A DNA stretch of 55,695 bases from Candidatus Taylorbacteria bacterium RIFCSPHIGHO2_02_FULL_43_32b. GTDB lineage: Bacteria; Patescibacteriota; Minisyncoccia; Phycocordibacterales; 2-02-FULL-43-11. The position numbers and the translations under genes were made by a program. Location: positions 1 to 55,695 of the forward strand of contig MHRK01000047.1 of the NCBI GenBank assembly GCA_001820955.1, given 5' to 3'. Shown in pieces: positions 5,172-48,461 of the stretch. The stretch's first letter is position 1. Each line of letters opens with the position of its first letter. The notes below the pieces were generated by a model that was not told the DNA's origin, did no database searches, and was given only the letters and a program-made list of their open reading frames with translations.

Positions 5172-5870
5172 ATGAACACTGTCATCGACGCAGGATCGGC
5201 CAAATTGGCTGGCTTGCAAATCGACACCCTCTCGAAATATCGGGCGGGTCAGCTCACTCTCGATCAATGGGAGCGGTTCAACAACCTCTCTCCGGATGAT
5301 CGGGAAGCACGTTTCGGCGATTGGAAGAAGCCGGAGCCCCGACGCCAAGAGGCGCCTGCGGAACCCACCGAAAAGTTCGCTCTGCTCGTGGACCTCGGCA
5401 TCATTACGGTGCCCGATGATTACGTGCACGACAAGCGGCTCACGAAGTTCGGTAAGCAGAACCGCAAAAAGTTCTATTACTACAGCGACGAGATCACCGA
5501 CAAGAACTTCCCGAATCCGACTCGGGTCCTGAAGCCTGGCGACAAGCTCCGCGTTCGCGCGTTCAAGCAAATCGTCCCCGGCACGACCACCTCGGAAGAG
5601 CGTATGGCGTTCTTGGCAACGGAAAAGGCCATCCACACCGGCGCACAAGGTGCGTCCCTCGTCTTTGATCAGAAGCGCGATCAACTGCCGAAAGGTAAGT
5701 GGTATACTTCCTTCGATGAAAAGGATCGTCTCTGGGCAGATGCCGACGGCTACCACGAGGTGCCGCTCGTGCTCTGCTACTCGGGCGGTGGCTTCCAGTT
5801 TCCCCTTGGCGTCTTCGAGAATGTCTGGGACGACGGCTATGCCTTCCTCTGCTTCTGCGACGTCGAGTAG
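5172..5870 (+). CDS. DGR variable (target) protein with a C-terminal VR
   Basis: 232-aa ORF, visibly GC-richer than its flanks. The last ~41 codons (ADGYHEVPLVLCYSGGGFQFPLGVFENVWDDGYAFLCFCD) align with the TR. An AGGA-type RBS lies upstream. Confidence 0.85.
   Translation: MNTVIDAGSAKLAGLQIDTLSKYRAGQLTLDQWERFNNLSPDDREARFGDWKKPEPRRQEAPAEPTEKFALLVDLGIITVPDDYVHDKRLTKFGKQNRKKFYYYSDEITDKNFPNPTRVLKPGDKLRVRAFKQIVPGTTTSEERMAFLATEKAIHTGAQGASLVFDQKRDQLPKGKWYTSFDEKDRLWADADGYHEVPLVLCYSGGGFQFPLGVFENVWDDGYAFLCFCDVE
5740..5861 (+). repeat. DGR variable region (VR)
   Basis: Ungapped match to 6234-6355. I count 19 mismatches: 18 opposite TR adenines and one C/T (6295 vs 5801). Confidence 0.9.
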
Positions 5871-5920
5871 CCCTTGGAAACTTGGGCACTCAGTTTGTTC
5901 TTCGGGTCCTTAGACCCTTT

Positions 5921-5955
5921 GAGCCCTTGCTTCACCGCGAGGGCTCAATTTTTTT
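5921..5955 (+). terminator. Intrinsic terminator after the DGR target gene
   Basis: Stem gagccct-tgcttcaccgcg-agggctc followed by aattttttt. A smaller hairpin gggtc-ctta-gaccc lies at 5904-5917. Confidence 0.6.
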
Positions 5956-6233
5956 ATATAAATTTTGTATAATATTGTCCGGAACCTAGATAGCGCATGC
6001 GGCCACGGTTTCATGCCATCGAATTCTCGTTTAAGGAATCAGCGAGCGGTCCGTCGGGTAACCCAGTAGGTCATTCTGCTGAATGAGCTTTACGGACGAG
6101 TGCTACCTTTCATGAAAAAATCAAATAAGTCGGTGCGATGTGCCAGCGAGTATAAGACTCGGAATAAAATTCAAAGGGGAGCTGGTGCTCTTCTTGGTGA
6201 GATAGACGGCGCGTCGTACATTGCTGATGAGGT

Positions 6234-6355
6234 ATGCCGACGGCAACCACAAGGTGCCGAACGTGAACTGCAACTCGGACGGTGACTTCAAGTTCAACCT
6301 TGGCAACTTCGAGAATGTCTGGAACGACGACAATGCCTTCCTCTGCTTCTGCAAC
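6234..6355 (+). repeat. DGR template repeat (TR)
   Basis: In the VR-equivalent frame it has 8 AAC codons, and all 8 are altered in the VR. It is non-coding in context (the ORF-track ORF 6221..6466 just reads through it). Confidence 0.9.
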
Positions 6356-6366
6356 TCAAATGATTT

Positions 6367-6389
6367 CTCCCACTACTTGTTAGTGGGAG
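6367..6389. terminator. 9-bp hairpin straddling the Avd stop codon, 12 nt after the TR
   Basis: Stem ctcccacta-cttgt-tagtgggag followed by ttttg on the + strand. Possibly a bidirectional terminator or a structured part of the TR RNA 3' region. Confidence 0.45.
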
Positions 6390-6714
6390 TTTTGTCTCCA
6401 AGGTTTTTCTTCCATCCACCAAGCATGCGCCCGACCTCATCCAATAGTAAAATGAGAGCACCGTAACTTTTATGGTCAATGACTTTATGTTCCCAGCTTA
6501 ACTGTAGAAAGAATTTGAGAAGATCAGCTTTTGCGATAGCCTGGGATACCAGGGATAGTTTCTCGAATTTGTCATAGGCAAAACAACCTCTGAATATCAG
6601 TTCGAGAAGTGAGAGGAAAATATCATCAACTTTTGCACCGATCGTATAGCGATCGACACGTTTTAAATTTGCGATTGAGCTATGCCACGCTTGATAAGCT
6701 TCTTTCGCACGCAC
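6373..6714 (-). CDS. avd: Avd-like accessory protein (four-helix-bundle / '23S rRNA intervening sequence protein' family)
   Basis: 113 aa, all-helical. ...IANLKRVDRYTIGAKVDDIFLSLLELIFRG...ALILLLDEVGRMLGGWKKNL resembles this family, which includes the Bordetella phage Avd. Confidence 0.75.
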   Translation of the reverse strand: MRAKEAYQAWHSSIANLKRVDRYTIGAKVDDIFLSLLELIFRGCFAYDKFEKLSLVSQAIAKADLLKFFLQLSWEHKVIDHKSYGALILLLDEVGRMLGGWKKNLGDKTPTNK

Positions 6715-6735
6715 AAGAACAAGCGGGATTGTTGC

Positions 6736-6746
6736 GGGGGGGGGGG
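6736..6746. repeat. G11 homopolymer tract between the divergent Avd-like and RT genes
   Basis: The run gttgc-ggggggggggg-tgac was counted directly from the sequence. Confidence 0.9.
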
Positions 6747-6772
6747 TGACTTACTGGTTTATTCTGCTCGTC

Positions 6773-7759
6773 ATGTTTACTCATACATACAATTCTATCA
6801 TTACGATTGAAAATTTACTCCTGACGTGGGAAAGGTTTTTGCGCGGCAAAAAGCACAAAAAGGATGTAATTAAATTTCAGGCCGAGCTGGCAACAAATAT
6901 AGCCAGCCTTTATGCAGACCTCAAAAACAAAACCTACATTCACGGTCCATATTCAGCGTTCAATATTTCTGATCCAAAGCCTCGCAACATCCACAAAGCA
7001 ACAGTGCGCGATAGAGTGTTGCATCATTTGATTTACAAAGAATTATATTGGCATTTTCATACTAGGTTTATTTATGATTCTTACTCATGCCGAAAGCATA
7101 AGGGAACGCACAAAGCCCTCGATCGTTTCAAGGACTTTGCTCGCAAGGTATCAAAGAATCATACGCGCACATGTTTTGTACTCAAGTGCGATATTAAAAA
7201 GTTTTTTGCGAGTGTTGACCATGCGGTTCTTATAAAAATCCTTGAACGCCATATTGCTGATCCCGATATCCATTGGCTCATAAATCAGGTTATCTCCAGT
7301 TTTCACACAACAGCTCCGGGTGTCGGATTACCGCTTGGTAATCTCACGTCTCAACTTCTCGTGAACGTATACATGCATGAATTTGACATGTACATCAAAC
7401 AGGAATTAAGAGTGAAATATTATTTACGATACGTAGATGATTTTGTGATTATGCATTATGACAAAAAAGTGATCATGGAAGCGTTGCCGAAAGTCCGCGA
7501 TTTTTTGGAAAATCGTCTCAAATTGTCGTTGCATCCGGATAAGGTTTTCATTAAGACGGCGTCTTCGGGCGTCGATTTTCTGGGATGGATTCACTATCCA
7601 AAACATCGAGTTTTGAGAACGGCGACGAAAAAGAGAATGTTGAGAAAGATCACCGCTACTTCTAAGCCAGAGACCGTCGCCTCGTACCTCGGACTTTTAT
7701 CGCACGGTAATTGCTTCAAATTGAGTCAGACGATATCACGTGGTAGACTTGCAAAATGA
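6773..7759 (+). CDS. DGR-type reverse transcriptase
   Basis: PRNIHKATVRDRVLHHLIY, LPLGNLTSQLLVNVYM (the [LIV]GxxxSQ signature of DGR RTs), YLRYVDDFVIM (YxDD) and GVDFLGW. The start is taken at ATG 6773; the ORF track begins at GTG 6746 inside the G-run. Confidence 0.9.
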   Translation: MFTHTYNSIITIENLLLTWERFLRGKKHKKDVIKFQAELATNIASLYADLKNKTYIHGPYSAFNISDPKPRNIHKATVRDRVLHHLIYKELYWHFHTRFIYDSYSCRKHKGTHKALDRFKDFARKVSKNHTRTCFVLKCDIKKFFASVDHAVLIKILERHIADPDIHWLINQVISSFHTTAPGVGLPLGNLTSQLLVNVYMHEFDMYIKQELRVKYYLRYVDDFVIMHYDKKVIMEALPKVRDFLENRLKLSLHPDKVFIKTASSGVDFLGWIHYPKHRVLRTATKKRMLRKITATSKPETVASYLGLLSHGNCFKLSQTISRGRLAK

Positions 7760-33506: not shown

Positions 33507-34070
33507 ATGGGACAACTGGAAACCGAATCGAAAATAAGGACTAGAAATTCAAAAATAAAGAGTGCGATTCTAACCACGCTCGCTGTTTCGATTGCAGGAT
33601 CGCTTAATGCTGGTGCTTTGGTACGAGGGGTTTTGCAGGAACTGAAGAAACCAAAGGAAAAACGCGTTCTTGCCCAAAATGCCATATACAACGCGAGAAA
33701 AAGACTGTCACAGCTTGGGCTCATCTCTTATGAAAATGGATTGTGGTATATAACTGAAGAAGGAAGAAAAGTGCTTTCAACTTCAGTTTTCGGCCAGTTT
33801 GAACGGCCTAAAAAGTGGGATAAAAAATGGCGAATATTGATTTTTGACATAGGTGAGGATAGACGCACACTAAGAGAGAAAGTGAGGAGAACTTTGGTTT
33901 CTGTGGGGTTTAGGAGACTGCAGGATAGCGTTTGGGCGTATCCATATGATCGCGAGGACTTGATCGCGCTTATTAAAACCGATTTCAAAATTGGCAAGGA
34001 CATGCTTTATATTATTGCAGACCAAATCGAGAATGATATTGAATTGAGGCGCGAGTTCGGTTTAATGTAG
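33507..34070 (+). CDS. PaaX-like transcriptional regulator (wHTH plus Cas2-like fold domain)
   Basis: ...KKWDKKWRILIFDIGEDRRTLREKVRRTLVSVGFRRLQDSVWAYPYD... resembles the PaaX-family central domain. Confidence 0.65.
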   Translation: MGQLETESKIRTRNSKIKSAILTTLAVSIAGSLNAGALVRGVLQELKKPKEKRVLAQNAIYNARKRLSQLGLISYENGLWYITEEGRKVLSTSVFGQFERPKKWDKKWRILIFDIGEDRRTLREKVRRTLVSVGFRRLQDSVWAYPYDREDLIALIKTDFKIGKDMLYIIADQIENDIELRREFGLM

Positions 34071-39251: not shown

Positions 39252-39452
39252 ACGTTCGAACTGCGAGTGGTCGCGGTGCGAACGGTGGTTAAAATATTTC
39301 CTAACAGGAAATAAGAGCATATGGTGGATGCCTTGGCTCGAGAGAGGCGATGAAGGACGTAGCGTGGCTGCGATAAGCTTCGGGGAGGTGCCTAGCAACC
39401 TTTGATCCGGAGATGTCCGAATGGGGAAACCCTGCGGCGTAAAACGCCGTAA

Positions 39453-39644
39453 CCGAAGCATCACATGGAATGTGATGAAAAATGCAAAATGTAAATATCA
39501 AAATTAAAAATGACAGTTAAAAATGTAAAAATGAAAGAAATTGGAAAATGTTTTTGTTTTCAATTTTAAAAATTTGCATTGTCATTTTACACTTTGATTT
39601 TTTAATTTTAAATTTAAAGCATCGCGTTTCGCGCGATGCTTCGG
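39453..39644 (+). other. 23S intervening sequence 1 (helix 9 region), containing a family F1 palindrome
   Basis: Closing stem ccgaagcatc...gatgcttcgg. Modules are catcacatggaatgtgatg, an F1 palindrome, then gcatcgcgtttcgcgcgatgc. Confidence 0.7.
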
Positions 39645-39745
39645 AGCGTACCCTGGGAAGTAAAACATTTCAGTACCAGGAGGAGTAGAAACTAATCAGC
39701 ATTCCGTAAGTAGCGGCGAGCGAAAGCGGAGAAGCCCAAACCCGG

Positions 39746-39906
39746 CCGCATCTCATTGCATTCGATGCGGAATTCTTAATTTTTAAATTTTGTAATTTTT
39801 TAAATAATTTTCTAATTTCTGAATGTTTACACATTTGGTCATTGGGATTTGTTTAGAAATTAAAAATTAGAAATTAGAAATTCCACTCGAGCGTAGCGAG
39901 ATGTGG
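39746..39906 (+). other. 23S intervening sequence 2 (domain I), containing a family F3 element
   Basis: Closing stem ccgcatctc...gagatgtgg. The interior, ~120 nt (aatttttaaat...ttagaaattaaaaattagaaattagaaattcc), is closely similar to 44332-44442. Confidence 0.65.
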
Positions 39907-40221
39907 CAGGGGGTTGTAAGGTAACGGCGTCGGTTTTATATCGAGAAGAGTTACAAAATTGTTTGTTAATTGAATCTGCTGGAAAGCGGAGCCCAAGAAG
40001 GTGATAGCCCTGTAAGTGAAAATAAACAATCTCTTTTGCCGTTATTCTTGAGTACTTCGAGACACGAATAGCTCGGAGGAATCTGCCGGAACTAACCGGT
40101 AAGGCTAAATACTCATCGAGACCGATAGTGAACTAGTACCGCGAGGGAAAGGTGAAAAGCAGTCCGTTGAGGACGATGAAATAGACCTGAAACCATATTG
40201 CTTACAAAGAGTTGTAGCGGG

Positions 40222-40368
40222 CGCATCACATGGGATGTGATGCGGATATGAATTATGAATAAGGAATTATGAATTATGCCGGGAAAATTGCGTAGCAATT
40301 TTCCCCAACCATTATTCATAATTCATACTTCTTAATTCATGCTTGAGCATCGCGTTTCGCGTGATGCG
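40222..40368 (+). other. 23S intervening sequence 3 (helix 25 region), containing a family F2 palindrome
   Basis: gcatcacatgggatgtgatgc, then an F2 palindrome (gaattatgaataaggaattatgaattatg...), then gcatcgcgtttcgcgtgatgc. Confidence 0.7.
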
Positions 40369-40994
40369 TCCGTGGCAGCGTGCCTATTGAAGAATGAGCC
40401 AACGAGTTGATGCATTCGGCGAGGCGAACTCCCGTTAAAGGAGGAAGCCGTAGGGAAACCGAGTGTTAATAGCGCGAATAGTCTAATGCATCAGACCCGA
40501 AGCCAAGTGAGCTTGCCTTGAGCAGGATGAACCCTCGAGAAATCGAGGGGAAGGTCCGAACGCTAGAGCTGTGCAATACTCTGCGATGACTTGAGGTAAG
40601 AAGTGATAAGCTAATCGAACTTGGTAATAGCTGGTTCTCTCCGAAATAGCTTTTGGGCTAGCGTCGAGTGATCCTTTAAGGGGTAGAGCACTGGATGGTC
40701 TGGACAGGTCGAAAGACCGCTAGACCAATCAAACTCCGAATACTTAGAGTTATAACTCGGCAGTTACACCGTGGGGGCGAAGCTTCACTGGTGAAAAGGG
40801 AAACAGCCCGGATCTCCAAATAAGGTCCCTAAATTTATGCTAAGTGCATCACAAGGTGGTGAAATTTCTCAAACAATGAGGATGTCGGCTTAGAAGCAGC
40901 CATCATTCAAAGAAAGCGTAACAGCTCACTCATCGAGAGATTTTGCGCCGAAGATAATCGGGGCTAAGCATAGTACCGAATTTGAGGGCACAGG

Positions 40995-41131
40995 AAGCAT
41001 CACATTGCATGTGATGCGAATTATGCAGTATGAATTATGAATTAAGGTTTTCGGAAAATCGCTTTGCGATTTTCCTCCATAATACATAATTCATTATTCA
41101 TAATTCGGCATCGTGCGTAGCGCGATGCTTC
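40995..41131 (+). other. 23S intervening sequence 4 (helix 45 region), containing a family F2 palindrome
   Basis: Closing stem gaagcatc...gatgcttc. Modules are catcacattgcatgtgatg, an F2 palindrome, then gcatcgtgcgtagcgcgatgc. Confidence 0.7.
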
Positions 41132-41673
41132 TCGTGCGGTAGGAGAGTTTTCGCATCTGCTGTGAAGGTGAAGGGGTGACCCACACTGGAGCGTTGCGAA
41201 GTAAGAATGTTGGCACAAGTAACCACATTAGGGGTGAGAAACCCCTACGCCGAAATACCAAGGTTTCCTTGGCAATGATTGTCAGCCAAGGGTTAGTCGG
41301 TCCTAAGGGAATGGCGAAAGCCGCACCCGATGGATATACGGTTAATATTCCGTAACTTTCGTGCGAAACGATGAGATGACGAAGTGTAGTATGCTCTGCG
41401 CATTATTGGATTTGACGTTTGACGCGTCAGGACGGCTTTTAGGTAAGTCCGGGAGCCTGCCTTTAATGGCGATTCCAAACGCGGCAAGAATCCCAAGGGC
41501 AACCGAGGGAAATAGGGCAAAGCACGCTTCCGAGAAAAGTCTCTAAGTTTATTCGCATGAAATCCGTACCGCAAACCGACACAGGTGGTAACGTCGAGAA
41601 GACGAAGGCGAACGAGTGAAGGTTCTCCAAGGAACTCGGCAAAAAATCAGCCGTAACTTCGGAATAAGGCTTT

Positions 41674-41985
41674 CCAGCACCACTTTTTGGTTTTAAAATA
41701 TAGTTGTGTATTACGTCTATTTACAAAAACACACTGTAACCAAAGAGATTTATATTGGTAAAACAAATAATCTCAAGCGACGTTTGAGCGAACATAATAA
41801 CGGTGAACAAAAATCTACACATCGGAAAGATGGCGAATGGAAATTTGTTTATCTGGAGGTATATCGCTCAAAAAAAGATGCAGATGATCGTGAGATGAAG
41901 CTTAAGCATCACGGTCGTGCGAAACAAGAGCTATATAAAAGAATCAGCTCGTCGCTTGAAGATTAAAACCAAAAAGTGGTGCTGG
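41674..41985 (+). other. Stem-bounded 23S insertion (helix 63 region) carrying a GIY-YIG ORF
   Basis: A perfect 22-bp closing stem ccagcaccactttttggtttta / taaaaccaaaaagtggtgctgg encloses ORF 41706..41966. Confidence 0.7.
41706..41966 (+). CDS. GIY-YIG domain nuclease (small YhbQ/UPF0213-like)
   Basis: GTG start. YYVYLQKHTVTKEIYIGKTNNLKRRLSEHNNG...WKFVYLEVYRSKKDADDREMKLK. Confidence 0.75.
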   Translation: MYYVYLQKHTVTKEIYIGKTNNLKRRLSEHNNGEQKSTHRKDGEWKFVYLEVYRSKKDADDREMKLKHHGRAKQELYKRISSSLED

Positions 41986-42103
41986 ATGCAACGAAAGACT
42001 GCTTGGCAACTGTTTATCAAAAACACAGCTCCCTGCGAACTCGTAAGAGGATGTATAGGGGGTGACACTTGACCAATGCCAGAAGGTCAAACGACGGCGT
42101 TGC

Positions 42104-42250
42104 GTGCATCACATGGAATGTGATGCGGGATGAATTATGAATAAAGAATTATGAATTATGGAGGAAAATCGCAAAGCGATTTTCCGAAAACCCTAATTAC
42201 TAATTCATACTACATAATTTAATTCTCACATCGCGCTTCGCGTGATGCAC
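42104..42250 (+). other. 23S intervening sequence 5 (domain IV), containing a family F2 palindrome
   Basis: Closing stem gtgcatc...gatgcac. Modules are catcacatggaatgtgatg, an F2 palindrome, then catcgcgcttcgcgtgatg. Confidence 0.65.
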
Positions 42251-42319
42251 GTGGTGACTGTCGTAAGCCCTGGTGAATGTCGGCCTTAACTATAAGGGTC
42301 CTAAGGTAGCGCAATTCCT

Positions 42320-43381
42320 AAAAGACTGGGACCATCCAAAAGGGATGGAAAACTTGGCTGTATGCGGGAAACTCCGGTAGTATCTCGAGACTACTTTGTC
42401 GGGTATAATATGCCGATGAGTAAAAATGTTTCGAGTGGCTCCGATTTATGTCGGAGGCCGGACAATCCGCAGGAAACGTATGAAGTTAGTAATTTCTATT
42501 ATTCAGGATTCTTTGCAGCAGAAATGTCCTGTTCGATCATTAAAGCAACAAATCATCATCCAAAAGGCTATTACTATGCCGTTGATATAACGGTGTCGAA
42601 TGCGGATGTAAAGTTGCTGAAGAAGGTGAATCGGGCAGTCATGAAAGGCTCCGGGATTATAAGCCCCGTAAAAGGAGCTTTCAATCTTTCGGCGCGCGGA
42701 AAAGAAAAGGTTCGTATTGTCCTGGATTTTCTTCAGAAGTATCCGATTATTGTTGGCGATCTTGCTAAAAATCGGATAGCGATCTTAAGGAAGGCGCTTG
42801 CGTATCTTGATAATCATCAAGGGCACGTAACGCATGAAGAAAAAACAAAAATCATGGATACAATGCGGCGTAATCTCCGAATGCTAAAAGAAAAAGGAGT
42901 AATTGAAAAATCATTTGACGTCGAACCGGTGAATACTGATGCTGTTGGCTATTTCCTTTCAGGAGTAGCGGATGGTGAGGGTTCATTTGGGTCTAAAATG
43001 TCCGGTGATCGTAAGGAACCGTATTTTTTTGTCGCGATGAAAGATCAGAAAATTATTGATCTGTTCCGAAAATTTATAAATTACGGAAATGTTCGGGGGC
43101 GAAAAGATAAAGTGTTCCATTGCGAAATAAATAAACGGGATAAGCTAAAAGAAATTTGTACCTTATTTCTTTTGCGATATCCTTTGCATAACGCGCGACA
43201 AAAGGCGCGGTTGCGAGAACTTCAGCGGATCCTCAACGACTATACGCCAAGCCCCGCAATGGCGGGGATGATATAGTCTGAACTGCATGGCGACATGCAG
43301 AGTTCGGCTCGCGTCGAACCGCTTCGATTAATTTTAATCGGAGTCAAAATCTTGCACCCGCAAGGTTTCAGTAACAGAGTG
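42320..43381 (+). mobile_element. Group I intron with a LAGLIDADG ORF, inserted in ..GCGAAAUUCCU|UGUCGGGUAAG.. (about E. coli 1943)
   Basis: The 5' exon ends in U (42319) and the intron ends in G (43381). An S-element-like gatatagtc lies at 43269-43277, and the exon sequence is restored on removal. Confidence 0.8.
42362..43276 (+). CDS. Double-motif LAGLIDADG homing endonuclease
   Basis: Motifs YYSGFFAAEMSCSI and VGYFLSGVADGEGSFG. The start is uncertain (the internal ATG 42410 is possible). Confidence 0.85.
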   Translation: MRETPVVSRDYFVGYNMPMSKNVSSGSDLCRRPDNPQETYEVSNFYYSGFFAAEMSCSIIKATNHHPKGYYYAVDITVSNADVKLLKKVNRAVMKGSGIISPVKGAFNLSARGKEKVRIVLDFLQKYPIIVGDLAKNRIAILRKALAYLDNHQGHVTHEEKTKIMDTMRRNLRMLKEKGVIEKSFDVEPVNTDAVGYFLSGVADGEGSFGSKMSGDRKEPYFFVAMKDQKIIDLFRKFINYGNVRGRKDKVFHCEINKRDKLKEICTLFLLRYPLHNARQKARLRELQRILNDYTPSPAMAGMI

Positions 43382-43698
43382 TGTCGGGTAAGTTCCGACG
43401 CGTTGAATAGTGTCATGTCTGAGCAACTGTCTCGGAGAACAGCTCGGTGAAAATACAGTACCGGTGAAGATGCCGGTTACCTGCAGCTAGACGAAAAGAC
43501 CCTGGAAGCTTTACTACAACTTGGTATTGAGTATATGTTTTTTATGCGTAGCGTAGACGTTAGGCTTTGAAGTGTCCCTTTCGGGGGGCATGGAGCCGCC
43601 AATGAAACAGCGTTCTTAAAAAATATATATTCTAACCTGTGCGGCAAAAACGTACGGGAACAGTATCTGGCGGGTAGTTTTGGTGGGGCGCTATCCTT

Positions 43699-44657
43699 GA
43701 GAACGTGAATTTTTTCGTGTTCTCAAACTATGGCGCCTCCGGCAAGGTTAATCTCTTGCGAAAAAAATAAAGTTAGAGGGCGTCATAAATTCAAAATGCA
43801 AAAATCAAAATGAAAAATGACCCCAGTAGCAGAGCAAATCTCGCTACGGGGCAGGCAATTGCAAAATGAAAAAATGACGGGTAAATCAGCGATATGCTGG
43901 GAAATCTGGTGTATCCGCAGCTACTTGGTGTACAATAGGAATGTTATAAATATCTAAATTTTTAATAACATGTCCGAAGAAATGCCAAGTGAAAATGCTA
44001 GCGGTGCAGAAAACCAGCAGGAATCTACTAACGAGCTTATTGAACGGTTTAGAAACCAACCAATTGAACAATATAAAATCGAGTTAATCAGAAAAGCCGA
44101 TGTAATTGAAAATAGGATTAGACATGTTAAAGACCTAATTCAAGAGTACGACGGAACTCATGGCGATATGAGTAGTATTTTTACGGGTCGATTGGGTGCA
44201 ATAGGAAGAAAACTTGATGAAATGGAGGAAGCCTTGGACTTTAATTTGAAGTCAGTAGCATTCATGAAAAGTCAGGAAAAGTAGTGGATATTCCTCAGAG
44301 ACCACCAGCTGATGCCTGTGAATACAGGAATGATTAATTTTTGAATTTTTCAATTTTTAAATAATGTTTCAATTTCTTAATGTTTAAGACATTGGGTTAT
44401 TGGGGTTTATTTAGAAATTAAAAATTAGAAATTAAGAATTCCGATGTACTCATCGGTTAATGTATGGTCCGAACTCTACCCTTCGATAAGGAGGGCTTGC
44501 CCGACTCAGGGCAAGTAGCGATATAGAGAGACAGGCAGAAATGTCCTGTCTGTAAACAAGATTTGTGCTTTCGTTTGCGCATGTATTCGTAGTCATTCGT
44601 TATGATTCGTATACATTCGTAGATTGGCACTTAATTTTGTTGTACACAACAAAATTG
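43699..44657 (+). mobile_element. 0.96-kb composite insertion in the 23S helix 81 loop region (class unresolved)
   Basis: Flanked by ..ggggcgctatcctt| and |tctaaaaagtaacgaaggag. Contains F1 (43786-43880), F3 (44332-44442) and F4 (44578-44624) repeats and a 104-codon ORF. U at -1 and a terminal G are possible. Confidence 0.6.
43970..44284 (+). CDS. Hypothetical helical/acidic 104-aa protein encoded inside the 23S insertion
   Basis: ORF track only. No nuclease, maturase or RT motif recognised. Confidence 0.35.
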   Translation: MSEEMPSENASGAENQQESTNELIERFRNQPIEQYKIELIRKADVIENRIRHVKDLIQEYDGTHGDMSSIFTGRLGAIGRKLDEMEEALDFNLKSVAFMKSQEK

Positions 44658-44899
44658 TCTAAAAAGTAACGAAGGAGTCTATTAAGGTTCCCTAGGCGCG
44701 AATGGAAACCGTGCCGATAGTGCAATGGCAAAAGGGAGCTTGACTGCGAGGGGGACATCCCAAGCAGGTGCGAAAGCAGAGCATAGTGAACCGATGGCCC
44801 GCGTTAGACGCGGCCAGAGATTATCGGACAAAAGCTACTCCAGGGATAACAGGCTAGTTCCGCCTAAGAGTTCATATCGACGGCGGAGTTCGGCACCTC

Positions 44900-45287
44900 A
44901 AATCGGGGCGCCATACCAGAAATGGTATTAGCTACTTCGACATAACACACAGGAGTGAACCCTGTTATGTTGTTGAAAAATATTGGCTTATAACGGTGGA
45001 ATCCTACGAATAAATTTTTTGCAAAATTTAGGCGAGGACAATCCCGTGGGAACCCAGCACCATTTATCGTAAGACGGTGAATGAAGTGGTGTTGGCGGCA
45101 GTGCTATTTATGTGACTATTTCCAGAAAGTAAATAAATGGTGCTGGACCCGTAGAGACTTTCTCGATGACCCAAATCGAGACTAGTCCGGAATAAATTTC
45201 CGGGCTAACACGCCAACTCCTCATCCTCCAAAAGAGGGAAGGAAGAAGATATAGTCCATACAATTGGAAACAATTGCTAAAAGATAC
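44900..45287 (+). mobile_element. ORF-less group-I-like intron in ..GGCACCUC|GAUGUCGG.. (about E. coli 2500, peptidyl-transferase centre)
   Basis: aagatatagtcc (S-element-like) at 45247-45258, followed by a caattg-gaaa-caattg hairpin. It shares ggct(t)ataacggtggaatc with the next intron. The canonical U(-1)/terminal-G junction cannot be placed. Confidence 0.65.
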
Positions 45288-45319
45288 GATGTCGGCTTAT
45301 CACATCCCGGGGCTGTAGA

Positions 45320-45353
<34 letters not shown>

Positions 45354-45442
45354 TGCTACATGAGCTGGGTTCAGACCGTCGCGAGACAGGTTGGTCTCCT
45401 ATCTGCTGCAGGCGTTGATTCTTGAGGAGATTCGTTTCTAGT

Positions 45443-45890
45443 AAGTAATTGCTACTTTATGGAGTAATCCATAATGACAATTTGGCTAATAACGGTGGAA
45501 TCTTAAGGTTTTTGGTCTGTTGATAACCATATCGAACACGGTCCGGTGATTATGGTACAATTTACTTGAGGACCAGAAATATTTAAGACAATACCGTGGG
45601 AAGCATTAGGAAATTAAAAATGCAAATATCAAAATCAAAAAATACTGATTAAATTTTGCGAAAGCAAAATTTACAATCTGAATAGAATTTGTCCGCCTTC
45701 GGCGGACGCTTCAATTTTACATTTTGATTTTTAAACTTTACATTTTCTTTTGCCCCGTAACGACTGGAGTCCGCCTTATCGGCGGACGAAGATAGTGGTG
45801 GCGAACGATTTCGCGCCATTATAATATGCCAACGACCAATTAGATTGGTCGAAGATATAGTCTACACACGTAGTGATACGTGAATATGTG
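45443..45890 (+). mobile_element. ORF-less group-I-like intron splitting the sarcin-ricin loop (..CUAGU|ACGAGAGGACC..)
   Basis: The 5' exon ends in U (45442) and the intron ends in G (45890). It has aagatatagtc at 45852-45862 and carries a family F1 palindrome (45611-45746) in a peripheral region. Confidence 0.7.
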
Positions 45891-46130
45891 ACGAGAGGAC
45901 CGAAACGAACTGACCTCTGGTGTACCTGCTGTCGTGCCAACGGCACCGCAGGGCAGCTATGTCGGGAACGGATAACCGCTGAAAGCATCTAAGTGGGAAA
46001 CCGCCTCCAAGATTAGGAATCGTTTAGACCCGTGGAAGACTACCACGTTGATAGGCTTTAGGTGTACGCACAGTAATGTGTTGAGCCGTGAAGTACTAAT
46101 CCGTCGATCTTGTTAGGAAATATTGGAGCC

Positions 46131-46213: not shown

Positions 46214-46308
46214 TTTGTCCCGTTGTGTGGAATTGATAGATGTCAGTTCCATTTGTACCTTGATTAAAATGTCCGCCAAAGGCGGATCAGCCGAGGAGGC
46301 TGAAAAAG

Positions 46309-46386
46309 CAGCGTAAAGCGTATAGCGTTTAGTTTGGAAGATTTTCCGGACTTAACGCTGTACGCTATTCGCTAAACGCTTTAAAG
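46309..46386. repeat. Family F6 palindromic element
   Basis: gcagcgtaaagcgtatagcgtttag...cttaacgctgtacgctattcgctaaacgctttaaag. Confidence 0.6.
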
Positions 46387-46395
46387 ATTTTGGAC

Positions 46396-46470
46396 GCGCA
46401 TGTAACTCAGCGGTAGAGTATGGCTTTCGTAAGGCCAGAGTCATTGGTTCAAATCCAATCATGCGCTCCA
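46396..46470 (+). tRNA. tRNA-Thr (anticodon CGU), CCA encoded
   Basis: Manual cloverleaf: gcgcatg/catgcgc acceptor, actc/gagt D stem, tggct-ttCGTaa-ggcca anticodon arm, attgg-ttcaaat-ccaat T arm, discriminator t, cca. Confidence 0.9.
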
Positions 46471-46476
46471 AGCTTT

Positions 46477-46567
46477 CGGAGGGGTGGTGTAATGGGCTCT
46501 GGGCACATTAGTTGTTTCACTTGATGGGTGAGAATTTGTCCAAGTTCAAAACTTGCCCCTCCGCCCA
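46477..46567 (+). ncRNA. 91-nt tRNA-like element (long variable region; anticodon not assignable)
   Basis: Perfect 7-bp acceptor cggaggg/ccctccg, T arm ccaag-ttcaaaa-cttgc and a 3' c-cca. However, position 8 is G, no clean D stem is found, and the best anticodon stem encloses a 9-nt loop (ttgtttcac). Confidence 0.3.
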
Positions 46568-46823
46568 ATTTTCGGGCTCCGTCCCTTCCGCGGGTGCGGA
46601 AACTGAGTGCCCGTAACTAACTGGGGCGCAACTAAGAATTAGAGGACAATCTTTCGTTCTCTTCTAGCTTAGTTGTCGCCCCGGTTAGAATTATGCTAAT
46701 CTCTTTGCATTAAAGGTTTTGTTCCCCAGTACAACAGCAAAGCTGTGTACGGGGCAGGCGGGTGATTTATTTCAGGGACTAAATCACGCAAAATTTTGAC
46801 AATATAATATTTGAACTCAAAGT

Positions 46824-46936
46824 CTCTGGTGCTTTGGCGAGAGGGAAACACCTCTTCCTCCGCCTCCGTAAAGCTTTGGCGGATTGCGATTTGTATCCAA
46901 TCGCTTCGCTTTTGGACAAATCGGGAACATTCCGAC
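46824..46936 (+). pseudogene. 5S-like 5' half carrying a ~70-nt insertion
   Basis: ctctggtgctttggcgagagggaaacacctcttcc [insert] acattccgac, compared with canonical gtctggtgacttgacgcggtggaaacacctcttcccattccgaac. Confidence 0.55.
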
Positions 46937-46985
46937 TTGCCCCGTCAGAAAAATTGAGTATATTGATAATTAGTTCACTTTTTTA

Positions 46986-47094
46986 GTCTGGTGACTTGAC
47001 GCGGTGGAAACACCTCTTCCCATTCCGAACAGAGCAGTTAAGCACCGTAGTACCGATGATACCCTTTGGTGGGAAAAGTAGGTAGTCGCCAGGC
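46986..47094 (+). rRNA. rrf: 5S rRNA (canonical copy)
   Basis: gtctggtgac...ggaaacacctcttcccattccgaacagagcagttaagc...ccgatgat..ggtgggaaaagtaggtagtcgccaggc. Helix I is complementary. Confidence 0.88.
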
Positions 47095-47126
47095 TAAAGT
47101 AGTGAACTCAATTTTTCTTTCCGGGG

Positions 47127-47279
47127 ACAGAGCAGTTAAGCCTCTTAGCGCCGATGAGTCACGCATAATTTTCTGCTGAAAATTTGCGCGACCCCGCCTC
47201 GGGCCGCCGCCCTCCGGCTTTGAATCCTCCAGGTGTTCGGATTCAACCCTTTGGTGGGAAAAGTAGGTAAGTGCCAGGG
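47127..47279 (+). pseudogene. 5S-like 3' half carrying a ~85-nt insertion
   Basis: acagagcagttaagcctcttagcgccgatgagtc [insert] accctttggtgggaaaagtaggtaagtgccaggg. Its 3' end can pair (with G-U pairs) with 46824-46832. Confidence 0.55.
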
Positions 47280-47310
47280 ACTTTGTGTTTAAGTCAAAAT
47301 TTAGGCGGGC

Positions 47311-47350
47311 GAACAGAGCAGTCAAGCTCTGTAGAGACGATGAGTCGTGG
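47311..47350 (+). pseudogene. Third partial 5S-derived fragment
   Basis: gaacagagcagtcaagctctgtagagacgatgagtcgtgg. Confidence 0.45.
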
Positions 47351-47401
47351 CTTTCTTGACATAAGTTTGTGCAAAAGTATTCTTAATGAGTAAAGGAACA
47401 A

Positions 47402-47605
47402 ATGAAAACCGTCCGCGCTAGCCGGTTAATTTTAGGGCTTTCTTTCGTAGGTATAATAAATACCCTGTGCCTCATCCTCGTTGCGAATCAACTTATATCG
47501 CAATGGTGGGTGATAATGGCTTTGTTGTTTTTGACGGCGTATGTCCTTTGGATTGTGATTTTAGTTGATAAAGCTCGAAATGGGCAAATCCTGATTAAGA
47601 AGTAA
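47402..47605 (+). CDS. Small 2-TM membrane protein (67 aa)
   Basis: Two hydrophobic helices (LILGLSFVGIINTLCLILVA and WWVIMALLFLTAYVLWIVILV). Confidence 0.45.
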   Translation: MKTVRASRLILGLSFVGIINTLCLILVANQLISQWWVIMALLFLTAYVLWIVILVDKARNGQILIKK

Positions 47606-47693
47606 TCCTCGTTGCGGGGGCTCTTTTTTTGTTTATCATAAACACTTTTGCGGACTCATTGTTTGTTGCTGGTTGTTTGTTTATACTTTAGGG

Positions 47694-48461
47694 ATGTTTT
47701 CTTGGGGACGAGGACGAAAATTACTTTATCTATCAACAGCATTGTTTTTCAGTGTTTTTGCAATGATTCTTATTGCTGTAGTTACTTGGTACGAACGGCC
47801 TAACTGTTTTGATAACATGAAGAATCAGGACGAATTCGGTGTCGATTGCGGGGGAAGTTGCGCCAAGGTTTGTACCAATGAAATTGCGCAAATAAGTCCG
47901 GATTGGGTCAGGTTTTTTGAAGTGAAATACGGAGTTTACAGTGTGGCGGTGCGGGCTCAAAATCCGAATAATCTCGTGGCATTTTCTGTTCCTTATCGCA
48001 TTAAACTTTACGGAAGTACTGGCCTACTGCTTGGCGAGAGAGATGGGGAAGTTTACATTCCGCCCAATCAGGCGTTCGGCATTTTTGAAGGCGCGATTAG
48101 TGTGCCGAACGACAAGCCTGCTCGAGTTACATTTGAATGGCGAGATAAAACTAATTGGGTGAAAAATTCAGCTGTTAACAAGCCTATGGTTATCAAAGAT
48201 GTGATAAGGAGTTTTAATGGCCCCGGTTTCCCAAGAGTGACCGCCCTAATGGAAAATACCAGTCTTCAAACTGTACGTAATGTAAGGGGTGTTGCCATTG
48301 TTTATGACTTGAACGGGAACGCAATAGCGGCATCAAAAACAATAATCGACAAGGTAGCTGGAGGGGGAAAAGCGGAGATGGTTTTTTCTTGGCCTGTTTA
48401 TTTCGGGCAGGAGGCTAGAGTTGAAATTCTTCATTGGCTTTTGCCCATGGGTGAACAATAG
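47694..48461 (+). CDS. Membrane-anchored hypothetical protein upstream of the SEDS gene
   Basis: N-terminal TM (LLYLSTALFFSVFAMILIAVVTW), a cysteine cluster (CFD..CGGSCAKVC) and a beta-rich domain. The ORF track starts at TTG 47673. Confidence 0.6.
   Translation: MFSWGRGRKLLYLSTALFFSVFAMILIAVVTWYERPNCFDNMKNQDEFGVDCGGSCAKVCTNEIAQISPDWVRFFEVKYGVYSVAVRAQNPNNLVAFSVPYRIKLYGSTGLLLGERDGEVYIPPNQAFGIFEGAISVPNDKPARVTFEWRDKTNWVKNSAVNKPMVIKDVIRSFNGPGFPRVTALMENTSLQTVRNVRGVAIVYDLNGNAIAASKTIIDKVAGGGKAEMVFSWPVYFGQEARVEILHWLLPMGEQ

What the first reader, a model, noticed from the sequence alone, without database searches (positions are those of the whole stretch)
46824..47350. Nested and fragmented 5S rRNA-derived array around one canonical 5S
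A canonical 109-nt 5S sits at 46986-47094. Upstream lies a 5S-like 5' half (46824-46936) carrying a ~70-nt insert. Downstream lies a 5S-like 3' half (47127-47279) carrying a ~85-nt insert. The outer ends of these two halves (ctctggtgc / gtgccaggg) can still form helix I using G-U pairs. The sequences flanking the canonical copy are inverted repeats (ccccgtcagaaaaattgag / ctcaatttttctttccgggg). So the layout reads as a second 5S-like gene that carries three insertions, one of which is a hairpin containing a complete 5S. A further fragment follows at 47311-47350. The alternatives are serial partial duplications, a decaying paralogue, or a functional insertion-bearing 5S.
Basis: seen in the sequence. 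Interest (0 to 1): 0.65.

Follow-up and report, generated by a model that had tools for sequence, protein, structure and literature searches.

The report
5S rRNA genes nested like dolls
In this groundwater Parcubacteria genome a complete 5S ribosomal RNA gene sits inside the split remains of the previous 5S gene, which itself sits inside a still older one, and the same gene-within-gene layout recurs in about a fifth of related species, where published surveys reported no insertions in 5S genes.

Summary
Eight independent assemblies give the 721-nt region identically.

With three inserts of 69, 191 and 87 nt removed, the flanking 5S-like halves form a collinear 108-nt 5S. It is 97% identical to the single uninterrupted 5S of the closest relative, which scores 75.3 bits on Rfam. 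It keeps 31 of 32 consensus pairs.

So the outer copy is the ancestral resident gene. The canonical inner gene (76.3 bits) lies at the tip of a 28-bp stem, inserted without target duplication into loop C (CCGA|ACAG). The "further fragment" is the 3' remnant of a third, older layer that is still intact in relative L268.

The layout recurs widely:
- 14 of 68 synteny-sampled Paceibacteria loci carry it.
- About 16 more species carry the same junction.
- One closed Campbellbacteria genome has it.

Inner genes are always intact. Outer ones range from perfect to wrecked.

Best reading: serial replacement. A cassette made of a 5S plus its processing stem lands in the resident gene and takes over its job, and the old gene decays while collecting small structured ORF-less modules. 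How the cassette inserts is unknown. Residual function of the outer copy is not excluded.

The Rfam model sees only the inner gene, which explains why surveys missed this. Interest is high.

The parts
46757..46779 (+). Probable 5' remnant of the oldest (third-layer) 5S gene: GGCGGGTGATTTATTTCAGGGAC.
   Evidence: It lies where L268 and L257 have the 5' half of an outermost 5S, and L009 has a similar remnant. Its CAGGG and UU can pair with CUCUG and GA of 47310-47343 as helix II (read from the sequence). It is weak on its own: nhmmer does not report it.
46780..46800 (+). Remnant start of an ins3-family module (TCACGCAAAATTTT), plus the left arm of the stem that encloses the second-layer gene (ACGCAAAATTTTGAC).
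   Evidence: Direct repeat D7 with 47159-47172, 93%. It is complementary to 47293-47307. It is homologous to the cacccgccaaaattttgaac arm in L268, L257 and L009.
46811..46834 (+). Left arm of the extended helix I of the outer (second-layer) gene.
   Evidence: Inverted repeat I2 with 47269-47292, 24 nt, 79% complementary. The pairing is present in the MFE fold.
46825..46858 (+). Outer 5S exon 1: helix I 5' strand, loop A, helix II 5' strand, loop B and helix III 5' strand.
   Evidence: 82% identical to 46987-47020. Identical to L009:1291-1324.
46859..46927 (+). Insert 1 (69 nt, site 34|35 on the 5' side of loop C): a two-hairpin, ORF-less module.
   Evidence: Absent from L009, L257 and L268. 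It is 86% identical overall to the insert at the same site in L100 (91% over a 58-nt local match) and 78% overall to that in L044 (85% over 54 nt). The predicted structure has 23 pairs, 9 with compensatory changes.
46928..46935 (+). Outer 5S exon 2: CATTCCGA (loop C).
   Evidence: Collinear with inner positions 35-42.
46936..47126 (+). Insert 2 (191 nt, site 42|43, CCGA|ACAG): the cassette, made of left stem arm, complete 5S and right stem arm. There is no target-site duplication.
   Evidence: Absent from L009, L257 and L268. The arms form a 28-bp duplex, dG -28.8 kcal/mol, z -6.9. The same junction CATTCCGACNTGYCCCGT occurs in about 16 Patescibacteria species.
46987..47094 (+). Inner, canonical 5S rRNA gene. 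This is the presumed working gene.
   Evidence: RF00001 76.3 bits against a gathering score of 38. It forms 32/32 consensus pairs.
47127..47157 (+). Outer 5S exon 3: helix III 3' strand, loop B, helix II 3' strand and the start of helix IV.
   Evidence: 79% identical to the inner gene. Identical to L009. Helix II pairs with exon 1 through compensatory changes relative to the inner gene.
47158..47244 (+). Insert 3 (87 nt, site 73|74 in the helix IV / loop E region): a three-hairpin module of a widespread Paceibacteria family.
   Evidence: Absent from L009, L257 and L268 at this site. The family has 26 predicted pairs, 12 with compensatory changes and no G-U pair. Its motif occurs in at least 120 genome stretches, mostly just 3' of tRNA genes.
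47245..47279 (+). Outer 5S exon 4: helix IV/V, loop D and helix I 3' strand.
   Evidence: 82% identical to the inner gene. Helix I pairs with exon 1. In total the outer copy forms 31/32 pairs.
47269..47292 (+). Right arm of the extended helix I of the outer gene.
   Evidence: Inverted repeat I2.
47293..47309 (+). Right arm (GTCAAAATTTAGGCGGG) of the stem that encloses the second-layer gene.
   Evidence: Complementary to 46786-46800. Conserved in L268, L257 and L009.
47310..47350 (+). 3' remnant of the oldest (third-layer) 5S. It covers positions 40-73, then GTCGTGGC, which resembles the start of ins3.
   Evidence: nhmmer E 5e-4 as 5S positions 40-73. 82% identical to the inner gene. It aligns position for position with the intact outermost 3' exon of L268.

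Best explanation
The locus is a three-layer nest of 5S rRNA genes at the end of the single 23S - tRNA-Thr - 5S operon of a Rifle-aquifer Parcubacteria (Paceibacteria) genome.

Shown:
- The outer copy (46825-47279) is the ancestral resident 5S. It is orthologous to the only 5S of the nearest relatives and is now split by three insertions.
- The 191-nt insertion in loop C is a self-contained unit: a complete canonical 5S enclosed by a roughly 28-bp stem that continues into its helix I. It was inserted between the two A's of CCGA|ACAG with no target duplication.
- The resident gene itself sits in a similar stem inside the remains of a still older 5S.

Inferred:
- The innermost gene is the one that works. 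It is cut out of the operon transcript at its long stem, like single 5S genes in relatives, which have the same kind of stem.
- Each nesting event is a gene replacement. A cassette (5S plus processing stem) lands in the loop-C coding site of the only 5S gene. The cell survives because the cassette supplies a working 5S. The superseded gene then decays by point changes, by deletions (including recombination between repeated halves) and by collecting small ORF-less structured modules such as ins1 and ins3. These modules belong to families that sit in or beside stable-RNA genes across Paceibacteria.
- The inner gene was acquired horizontally or from a long-diverged copy, not by recent local duplication.

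The insertion mechanism is unknown. The candidates are homing-like recombination after a break, hairpin-guided single-strand DNA transposition, and an RNA-mediated route.
For: Orthology of the outer copy:
- L009's single 5S equals the outer copy minus its inserts (105/108, same flanks) and scores 75.3 bits on RF00001.
- L257 and L268 also carry the uninterrupted form.

Newcomer status of the inner gene:
- Inner and outer are 87% identical, whereas the outer is 94-97% identical to its orthologues.

Third layer:
- In L268 the outer-type gene is itself nested in an intact older 5S.
- The window and L009 keep only remnants of that older gene at the same positions. In L009 the enclosing layer is clearly dead, so there the inner gene must be the working one.

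Recurrence:
- 14 of 68 FtsW-anchored loci have nests or relics.
- About 16 further Patescibacteria species share the junction motif.
- The closed genome CP011215 has a nest whose outer gene carries four inserts.

Intact inner genes, graded outer decay:
- Inner genes form 31-32 of 32 pairs in 15 of the 16 inner genes scored; the 16th, L111, is not reliably aligned to the reference structure.
- Outer genes range from 32/32 through 23/32 to truncated.
- L159 has lost the right half, as expected from recombination between identical repeats.

Stems:
- All 15 loop-C cassettes have 17-32-bp stems with z from -5.5 to -11 and differing sequences.
- The whole array folds at -194.9 kcal/mol, z -8.6.

Mobility of the modules:
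- ins1 and ins3 are more conserved between genomes than the working 5S of the same genomes.
- They occur at different sites and in both orientations.
Against: - Several outer genes keep perfect 5S pairing despite 2-5 insertions (L040, L044, L115 and L268 at 32/32). L081's exons are 103/107 identical to its inner gene. That is unexpected for neutral decay unless the events are recent or gene conversion refreshes the exons.
- The window's outer exons are as conserved as functional orthologues are with each other.
- No donor for the inner gene was found. The best matches are all near 85%.
- No enzyme or mechanism for insertion was identified. The cassette has no ORF, and no transposase or integrase was seen among the 30 window ORFs that were scanned.
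- Recurrence could partly reflect ancient shared ancestry followed by loss, rather than repeated insertion.
- No RNA data were available.
Confidence: 0.6

Rival explanations
1. The outer gene is still functional. Its three inserts are either removed from the transcript, as with the intervening sequences and introns that riddle the 23S of the same operon, or tolerated as expansion segments. The locus would then yield two kinds of 5S rRNA.
For: - The outer copy forms 31/32 consensus pairs, and its helices I and II differ from the inner gene by compensatory changes.
- Its exons are 97% identical to a functional orthologue.
- Outer genes with 4-5 inserts in other species still have intact exons (L081, L115).
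- Insertions avoid helix I and cluster at loop C, which Stepanov & Fox (PMC7812874) rate as the least obstructed site.
- L011's only 5S carries a ~102-nt insert.
- The 23S of this window works despite many insertions.
Against: - In many species the outer copy is truncated or has broken helices, so it is dispensable.
- Cutting at the stems would leave an 8-nt loop-C piece.
- Insert 3 sits in the helix IV / loop E region and insert 2 at 42|43. Stepanov & Fox list a site numbered 42-43, in their own numbering (not aligned to the window's here), as blocked by uL5.
- No match to any group I or II intron or ribozyme in Rfam.
- The compensatory differences can date from before the split, when both genes were functional in separate lineages.
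Confidence: 0.2
2. The outer halves are no longer a 5S. They are retained because they have been recruited as part of a long composite processing helix or scaffold for maturation of the inner 5S, for example by binding 5S-binding proteins or RNase III.
For: - The whole array folds into one long rod with the inner 5S at the tip.
- Two heavily decayed relics (L100, L013) still keep both strands of helix I.
- Single 5S genes in relatives such as L009 use stems that derive from an older nest.
Against: - Other relics have lost one helix I strand (L065, L155, L047), so retention is not consistent.
- Most relatives manage with a simple stem.
- No covariation test specific to this idea was possible.
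Confidence: 0.1
3. The array arose by local partial duplications and rearrangements of one 5S gene, with no insertion of a separate cassette.
For: Some species have identical inner and outer sequences (L040, L111). This could suggest in-place duplication.
Against: - The outer pieces are exactly collinear and non-overlapping, and together make one complete 5S. Tandem or partial duplication cannot give a whole gene inside a loop of another.
- In the window the inner gene is 13% diverged from the outer, while the outer is 3% from its orthologue.
- Relatives have the empty site.
Confidence: 0.05
4. Assembly artefact: a chimera of strain variants.
For: None found. The genome is a metagenome-assembled genome.
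Against: - Eight independent assemblies are identical over 721 nt.
- The internal repeats are at most 44 nt and 82% identical.
- The same architecture occurs in dozens of other genomes, including a closed one.
Confidence: 0.01

Closest known systems
Expansion segments and insertion-bearing 5S remnants in prokaryotic 5S rRNA genes (Stepanov & Fox 2021, PMC7812874; includes the Halococcus 108-nt insert)
   Same: Insertions of tens to about 100 nt in an otherwise recognisable 5S. [quoted passage not shown] Normal and insertion-bearing copies, or pseudogene remnants, coexist. Horizontal spread is suspected. Annotation and databases miss them.
   Different: That work reports them only in Clostridia orders, Pseudoalteromonas and Halobacteriales, not in CPR. 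No case there has a complete 5S gene inside the insert, and none is multi-layered. Here the organism has a single operon, so the clean copy is physically inside the interrupted one.
[quoted passage not shown] 2015, from my own knowledge; Tsurumaki et al. 2022 and 2024, PMC9297842 and PMC11270868)
   Same: The organisms are the same, and the same operon is riddled with insertions. The 23S here has large inserts and LAGLIDADG and GIY-YIG ORFs. Many CPR inserts are short, ORF-less and uncharacterised, and sit at the tips or bases of stem-loops.
   Different: The 2024 survey states that no insertion of >=100 bp was found in any of 645 CPR 5S genes. It extracted genes with the Rfam model, which here detects only the inner gene. 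An insert that carries a replacement copy of the interrupted gene has not been described there.
Integrative elements that target tRNA/tmRNA genes and carry a replacement gene segment (Williams 2002, from my own knowledge); CIME-like miniature derivatives
   Same: The logic is the same: insertion into an essential stable-RNA gene is survivable because the incoming DNA restores a working copy and displaces part of the old gene. The ins3 family found here usually lies just 3' of tRNA genes. In about a fifth of cases it is flanked by a 12-24-nt repeat of the tRNA 3' end, starting in the T loop.
   Different: No integrase was found. The cassette is only 191 nt. It brings a whole gene rather than a 3' segment. 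No direct repeat (att-like core) flanks the 5S cassette.
Nested mobile elements (twintrons; nested transposon insertions)
   Same: An element inside an element, with successive layers of different age.
   Different: Here each layer is the same housekeeping RNA gene. No intron or ribozyme signature was found in Rfam. No transposase, terminal-repeat-plus-target-duplication signature was found either.

Membership tests
Bacterial 5S rRNA (Rfam RF00001): inner copy | Covariance-model score above the gathering threshold over the full model, with helices I-V. | tested here: met
   76.3 bits against a gathering score of 38, model positions 1-120. 32/32 consensus pairs.
Bacterial 5S rRNA (Rfam RF00001): outer copy as it stands in the DNA | Covariance-model hit on the genomic sequence. 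| tested here: not met
   No RF00001 hit for the halves at E<=10, either in context or searched alone.
Bacterial 5S rRNA (Rfam RF00001): outer copy with the three inserts removed | Full-length 5S sequence and structure. | tested here: met
   105/108 identical to L009's 5S, which scores 75.3 bits. 31/32 pairs. The spliced sequence itself could not be handed to cmscan, so the score is by proxy.
5S rRNA expansion segment (Stepanov & Fox) | Insert in an otherwise intact 5S core that folds on itself without pairing to the core. | tested here: met
   ins1, ins2 and ins3 each fold into their own hairpins. The core exons are intact.
5S rRNA expansion segment (Stepanov & Fox) | The expanded RNA is retained in the mature, ribosome-bound 5S. 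| not testable with these tools
   No RNA or ribosome data. Comparative decay of outer copies in other species argues against it.
CPR rRNA-gene insertion sequence (Tsurumaki 2024 definition) | Insert of >=100 bp in an rRNA gene of a CPR bacterium relative to the reference rRNA. | tested here: met
   ins2 is 191 nt. ins1 (69 nt) and ins3 (87 nt) fall below their length cut-off.
RNase III-type intervening sequence (IVS) | Long stem at the insert base that is cleaved without religation. | tested here: inconclusive
   A 28-bp stem is present. Cleavage is not testable here.
Group I / group II intron or known self-cleaving ribozyme | Match to the catalytic-core covariance models. | tested here: not met
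   No such Rfam hit in 46300-47700 at E<=10. Group I introns are detected in the 23S of relatives by the same tool.
MITE / classical IS | Terminal inverted repeats plus a target-site duplication; a transposase for the autonomous form. | tested here: not met
   Inverted ends are present. There is no duplication at any of the three inserts, because the exons are exactly collinear. There is no ORF in the array, and no transposase among the 30 window ORFs scanned.
IS200/IS605-type hairpin elements (PATE-like) | Subterminal hairpins, no target duplication, insertion next to a short specific sequence, and a Y1 HUH transposase in the genome. | tested here: inconclusive
   Hairpins, absence of duplication and two hot spots (34|35 and 42|43) fit. 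ins3 has only Watson-Crick pairs and occurs in both orientations. No HUH transposase was seen in the window. The rest of the genome was not examined.
Integrase-mediated insertion into a stable-RNA gene | Direct repeat (att core) of part of the target gene flanking the element, and a tyrosine or serine recombinase. | tested here: not met
   No direct repeat flanks the 5S cassette, and there is no recombinase in the window. Such repeats do flank about 20 of 95 tRNA-associated ins3 copies elsewhere.

The most novel reading that the evidence does not exclude
In Paceibacteria the 5S rRNA gene with its processing stem behaves as a tiny protein-less selfish cassette. It repeatedly homes into the loop-C coding site of the resident, single-copy 5S gene. 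It is tolerated only because it brings its own working 5S. The result is gene-by-gene turnover of an essential rRNA that leaves 'Russian-doll' fossils. A set of equally small structured modules (ins1, ins3, the CCCCGT...ACGGGG hairpin) exploits stable-RNA genes (5S, tRNA, 23S) in the same way.
Probability: 0.35. Interest if true: 0.85.

Novelty: new variant of a known kind. Interest (0 to 1): 0.75.

Why it matters
- It qualifies a published statement. The survey reported that CPR 5S genes carry no insertions of >=100 bp. These insertions exist but are invisible to model-based extraction, because the clean gene sits inside the interrupted one.
- It shows an essential single-copy rRNA gene being replaced in place, more than once, in one lineage. 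This gives a datable fossil record of 5S turnover and of horizontal transfer of a ribosomal RNA.
- It points to families of very small, ORF-less, structured modules that target stable-RNA genes in streamlined genomes. Their mobility mechanism is unknown and now testable, because target hot spots, empty sites and filled sites are all in hand.
- It matters for annotation. 5S copy number, rRNA operon boundaries and 'intergenic' sequence in Patescibacteria genomes are being misread.

Tried and rejected
- **Rfam on the halves alone.** No 5S hit, only chance-level matches (CRISPR-DR45, snoRNA, miRNA models). A CM cannot be used to validate the outer copy directly, so I used the uninterrupted orthologue instead.
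- **First genome scan with a 21-nt inner/outer 3' motif.** Zero hits. The window's own genome seems to be absent or masked in that collection.
- **Scan for the outer-specific helix II motif.** It mostly returned unrelated Actinobacteria-type 5S genes. Only L174 (= L009), L257, L268 and L264 were relevant.
- **Donor search for the inner gene.** No close donor was found. The resemblance of its extended helix I flanks to L011's 5S flanks is only about 15 nt on each side.
- **Idea that insertions occur only at unpaired positions.** Five of 16 distinct sites fall within short helices or helix ends, against 42% expected. The difference is not significant, so the claim was dropped. Only 'two hot spots at loop C, none in helix I' stands.
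- **Idea that ins1 and ins3 are 5S-specific.** Rejected. ins3 is mostly next to tRNA genes, and an ins1-like module lies in a 23S insertion of a sister strain.
- **Promoter inside the cassette.** One sigma-70-like match at 46937-46964 is not conserved in other cassettes, and the count is near expectation.
- **Coding potential.** Only short spurious ORFs lie in the array.
- **Phage vector.** The ins3 motif is absent from viral contigs.
Full report
**Context.** The window is a bacterial contig, MHRC01000056.1 of GCA_001822505.1, a groundwater Parcubacteria genome assembled from a metagenome. It has a 23S rRNA gene full of large insertions (39301-46107, two Rfam segments, inserts of 154-973 nt, a LAGLIDADG ORF). 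This is followed by tRNA-Thr(CGT) at 46396-46470 and then the 5S region. There is no 16S in the window. Downstream lie a small membrane ORF, an unknown ORF and ftsW.

**Checking the observation.**
- Rfam finds one 5S, at 46987-47094 (76.3 bits).
- It also recovers three inverted-repeat pairs, which enclose first the inner gene and then the whole array.
- Read in order, the outer pieces are exactly collinear and non-overlapping with the inner gene: exon 1 46825-46858, a 69-nt insert, CATTCCGA 46928-46935, a 191-nt insert, exon 3 47127-47157, an 87-nt insert, exon 4 47245-47279.
- A spliced alignment of the flanks against the inner gene scores 123. Shuffles give 45.7 +/- 5.8 (max 61), and other parts of the window reach at most 56.
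- Eight independent assemblies contain the 721-nt region at 100% identity, so it is not an assembly artefact.
- The Rfam model does not report the halves even when they are searched alone.

**What the outer copy is.** ftsW synteny gave 80 related loci, and about 70 have a 5S upstream of ftsW.
- The closest (L009, FtsW 81% identical) has a single, uninterrupted 5S. It is the window's outer copy with the three inserts removed: 105/108 identical, the same unusual helix I and II sequences, and the same immediate flanks. That gene scores 75.3 bits on RF00001.
- Two metagenome contigs (L257, L268) carry the same uninterrupted gene.
- On the 5S consensus structure the window's spliced outer copy forms 31 of 32 pairs. 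Its helices I and II differ from the inner gene by compensatory changes.
- So the outer copy is the ancestral resident gene, and the empty sites for all three inserts exist in relatives.
- The inner gene is only 87% identical to the outer, while the outer is 94-97% identical to its orthologues. The inner gene is therefore not a recent local duplicate.

**A third layer.** In L268 the outer-type gene, with its flanking stem (cacccgccaaaattttgaac ... caaaatttaggcggg), is itself inserted in loop C of an older 5S whose exons are intact (32/32 pairs). L257 has the same older gene with more inserts. L009 and the window keep only remnants. In the window these are:
- 46757-46779, the 5' remnant;
- the stem arms 46786-46800 and 47293-47309;

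In L009 the enclosing layer is plainly dead, so there the enclosed gene must be the working 5S.

**Recurrence.** The same architecture is outer 5' part, insert at 34|35, CATTCCGA, a hairpin starting CNTGCCCCGT that holds a complete 5S, then the outer 3' part.
- It occurs in L040, L044, L065, L013 and others of the synteny sample.
- In L017 and L070 the complete gene sits at 34|35 instead, and L017 additionally carries a cargo-less hairpin at 42|43.
- Counting relics, 14 of 68 loci with a full 5S are affected. L011 has a ~102-nt insert in its only 5S.
- A scan of species-representative genomes for the junction CATTCCGACNTGYCCCGT found about 16 further Patescibacteria genomes (Yonath-, Lipton-, Nomura-, Sungbacteria, Minisyncoccia and others) among chance hits elsewhere.
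- The closed Campbellbacteria genome CP011215 has a nest whose outer gene carries four inserts.
- All 15 loop-C cassettes examined have a 17-32-bp stem around the inner gene, with z from -5.5 to -11, different sequences and 1-3 G-U pairs.
- The whole window array folds at -194.9 kcal/mol (z -8.6), with the nested stems predicted.

**Working gene and relic.**
- Inner genes form 31-32 of 32 pairs in 15 of the 16 inner genes scored; the 16th, L111, is not reliably aligned to the reference structure.
- Outer genes form a continuum: 32/32 (L040, L044, L115, L268 outermost), 31/32 (window, L133, L070), 28-29 (L081, L017), 21-23 (L065, L109), and truncated (L047, L155, L100, L013).
- L159 looks like L040 after deletion between the identical inner and outer 3' halves.
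- This pattern is what a superseded gene should show, and it proves the outer copy is dispensable.
- It does not prove that every intact outer copy is inactive. The intactness of some heavily interrupted outer genes remains unexplained (note).

**The small inserts.**
- ins1 and ins3 are structured. ins3 has 26 predicted pairs, 12 with compensatory changes and no G-U pair. ins1 has 23 predicted pairs, 9 with compensatory changes.
- They are more conserved between genomes than the working 5S of the same genomes. For ins1, window against L100 is 86% versus 68%. For ins3, L083 against L268 is 87% (97% over the first 60 nt) versus 69%.
- ins3 occupies at least three different 5S sites and both orientations.
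- A final genome scan showed that ins3 is not 5S-specific. Its motif occurs in at least 120 stretches, nearly all Patescibacteria. Of 122 instances, 71 lie within 250 nt 3' of a tRNA gene on the opposite strand. Twenty of 95 are flanked by a 12-24-nt repeat of the tRNA 3' end that starts in the T loop.
- The motif was not found in viral contigs.
- An ins1-like module lies in a 23S insertion of a sister strain.
- These inserts are therefore members of wider families of tiny ORF-less modules associated with stable-RNA genes. That fits the 'uncharacterised short insertion sequences' of CPR rRNA genes.

**Insertion sites.** Thirteen outer genes give 36 insertions at 16 positions. There are two hot spots, 34|35 (8 genes) and 42|43 (9 genes), which flank loop C. 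None lies in helix I. No insert has a target duplication. The array has no credible ORF. One promoter-like match in the cassette arm is not conserved. The 30 window ORFs that were scanned include no transposase or integrase. The only reverse transcriptase belongs to a diversity-generating retroelement.

**Literature.**
- Tsurumaki et al. 2024 report no insertion of >=100 bp in 645 CPR 5S genes that were extracted with the Rfam model.
- Stepanov & Fox 2021 describe 5S expansion segments and insertion-bearing 5S remnants in Clostridia, Pseudoalteromonas and Halobacteriales only. None of them encloses a complete 5S.
- Six full-text searches found no description of nested 5S genes.

**Verdict.** The most likely account is serial replacement of the single 5S gene by an incoming cassette of 5S plus stem, with the old gene left as a decaying shell that collects small mobile modules (confidence about 0.6). 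Continued function of the outer copy (0.2) or its reuse as a processing scaffold (0.1) cannot be excluded without RNA data. The insertion mechanism is unknown.

Noticed in passing
window 5172-7759: A diversity-generating retroelement. It comprises a target ORF at 5172-5870 with a variable repeat at 5740-5861, a template repeat at 6234-6355 (122 nt, 84% identical), an Avd-like ORF at 6373-6714 and a reverse transcriptase at 6746-7759.
   Followed up: partly
Loci L269-L388 (genome contigs); window 47158-47244: The ins3 motif AAWTTNCGCGACCCCNNCTCG occurs in at least 120 stretches, nearly all Patescibacteria. Of 122 copies, 71 lie within 250 nt 3' of a tRNA gene (27 isoacceptors) on the opposite strand. 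Twenty of 95 are flanked by a 12-24-nt direct repeat of the tRNA 3' end that starts in the T loop (..GAATCG|GTCAC). This looks like a miniature element family that targets tRNA genes.
   Followed up: partly
window 39301-46107; L264:2676-3417: The 23S gene carries many large insertions, including a LAGLIDADG ORF (42362-43276) and a GIY-YIG ORF (about 41706-41966). Sister-strain contig L264 is 99.9% identical up to window ~44518 and then diverges. The divergent part holds an ins1-like hairpin module, so 23S insert content differs between strains.
   Followed up: partly
L011:6905-7108 (MHSK01000028.1, Taylorbacteria): The only 5S at this locus carries a ~102-nt insert at the helix IV/V tip, and there is no clean copy nearby. 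It is a candidate genuine expanded 5S in a CPR bacterium. Its extended helix I flanks match those of the window's inner gene.
   Followed up: no
L081:8464-9110 (CP011215.1, Campbellbacteria, closed genome): A nested 5S whose outer gene has four inserts, one of about 250 nt. Its exons are still 103/107 identical to the inner gene.
   Followed up: partly
window 46620-46685 and 46530-46570; L009:905-1044: A hairpin between tRNA-Thr and the 5S array (ggggcgcaactaagaattagagg...cctcttctagcttagttgtcgcccc) is conserved in L009. L009 also has a second tRNA call of 140 nt, that is, one with a long insert. The window keeps only a degenerate 3' remnant of that tRNA.
   Followed up: no
L034:2500-2900: ins3-like hairpins occur as part of a ~185-nt tandem repeat about 2 kb upstream of the 23S gene, on the opposite strand.
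   Followed up: no
window 33507-34070: An ORF with Cas2 / PaaX-middle-domain and Mrr_N matches. No CRISPR array was noticed nearby.
   Followed up: no
L083:1118-1180 (= L270): A run of N (a masked stretch in the collection) starts inside the insertion-bearing second 5S copy of this genome, so that copy could not be read to its end.
   Followed up: no
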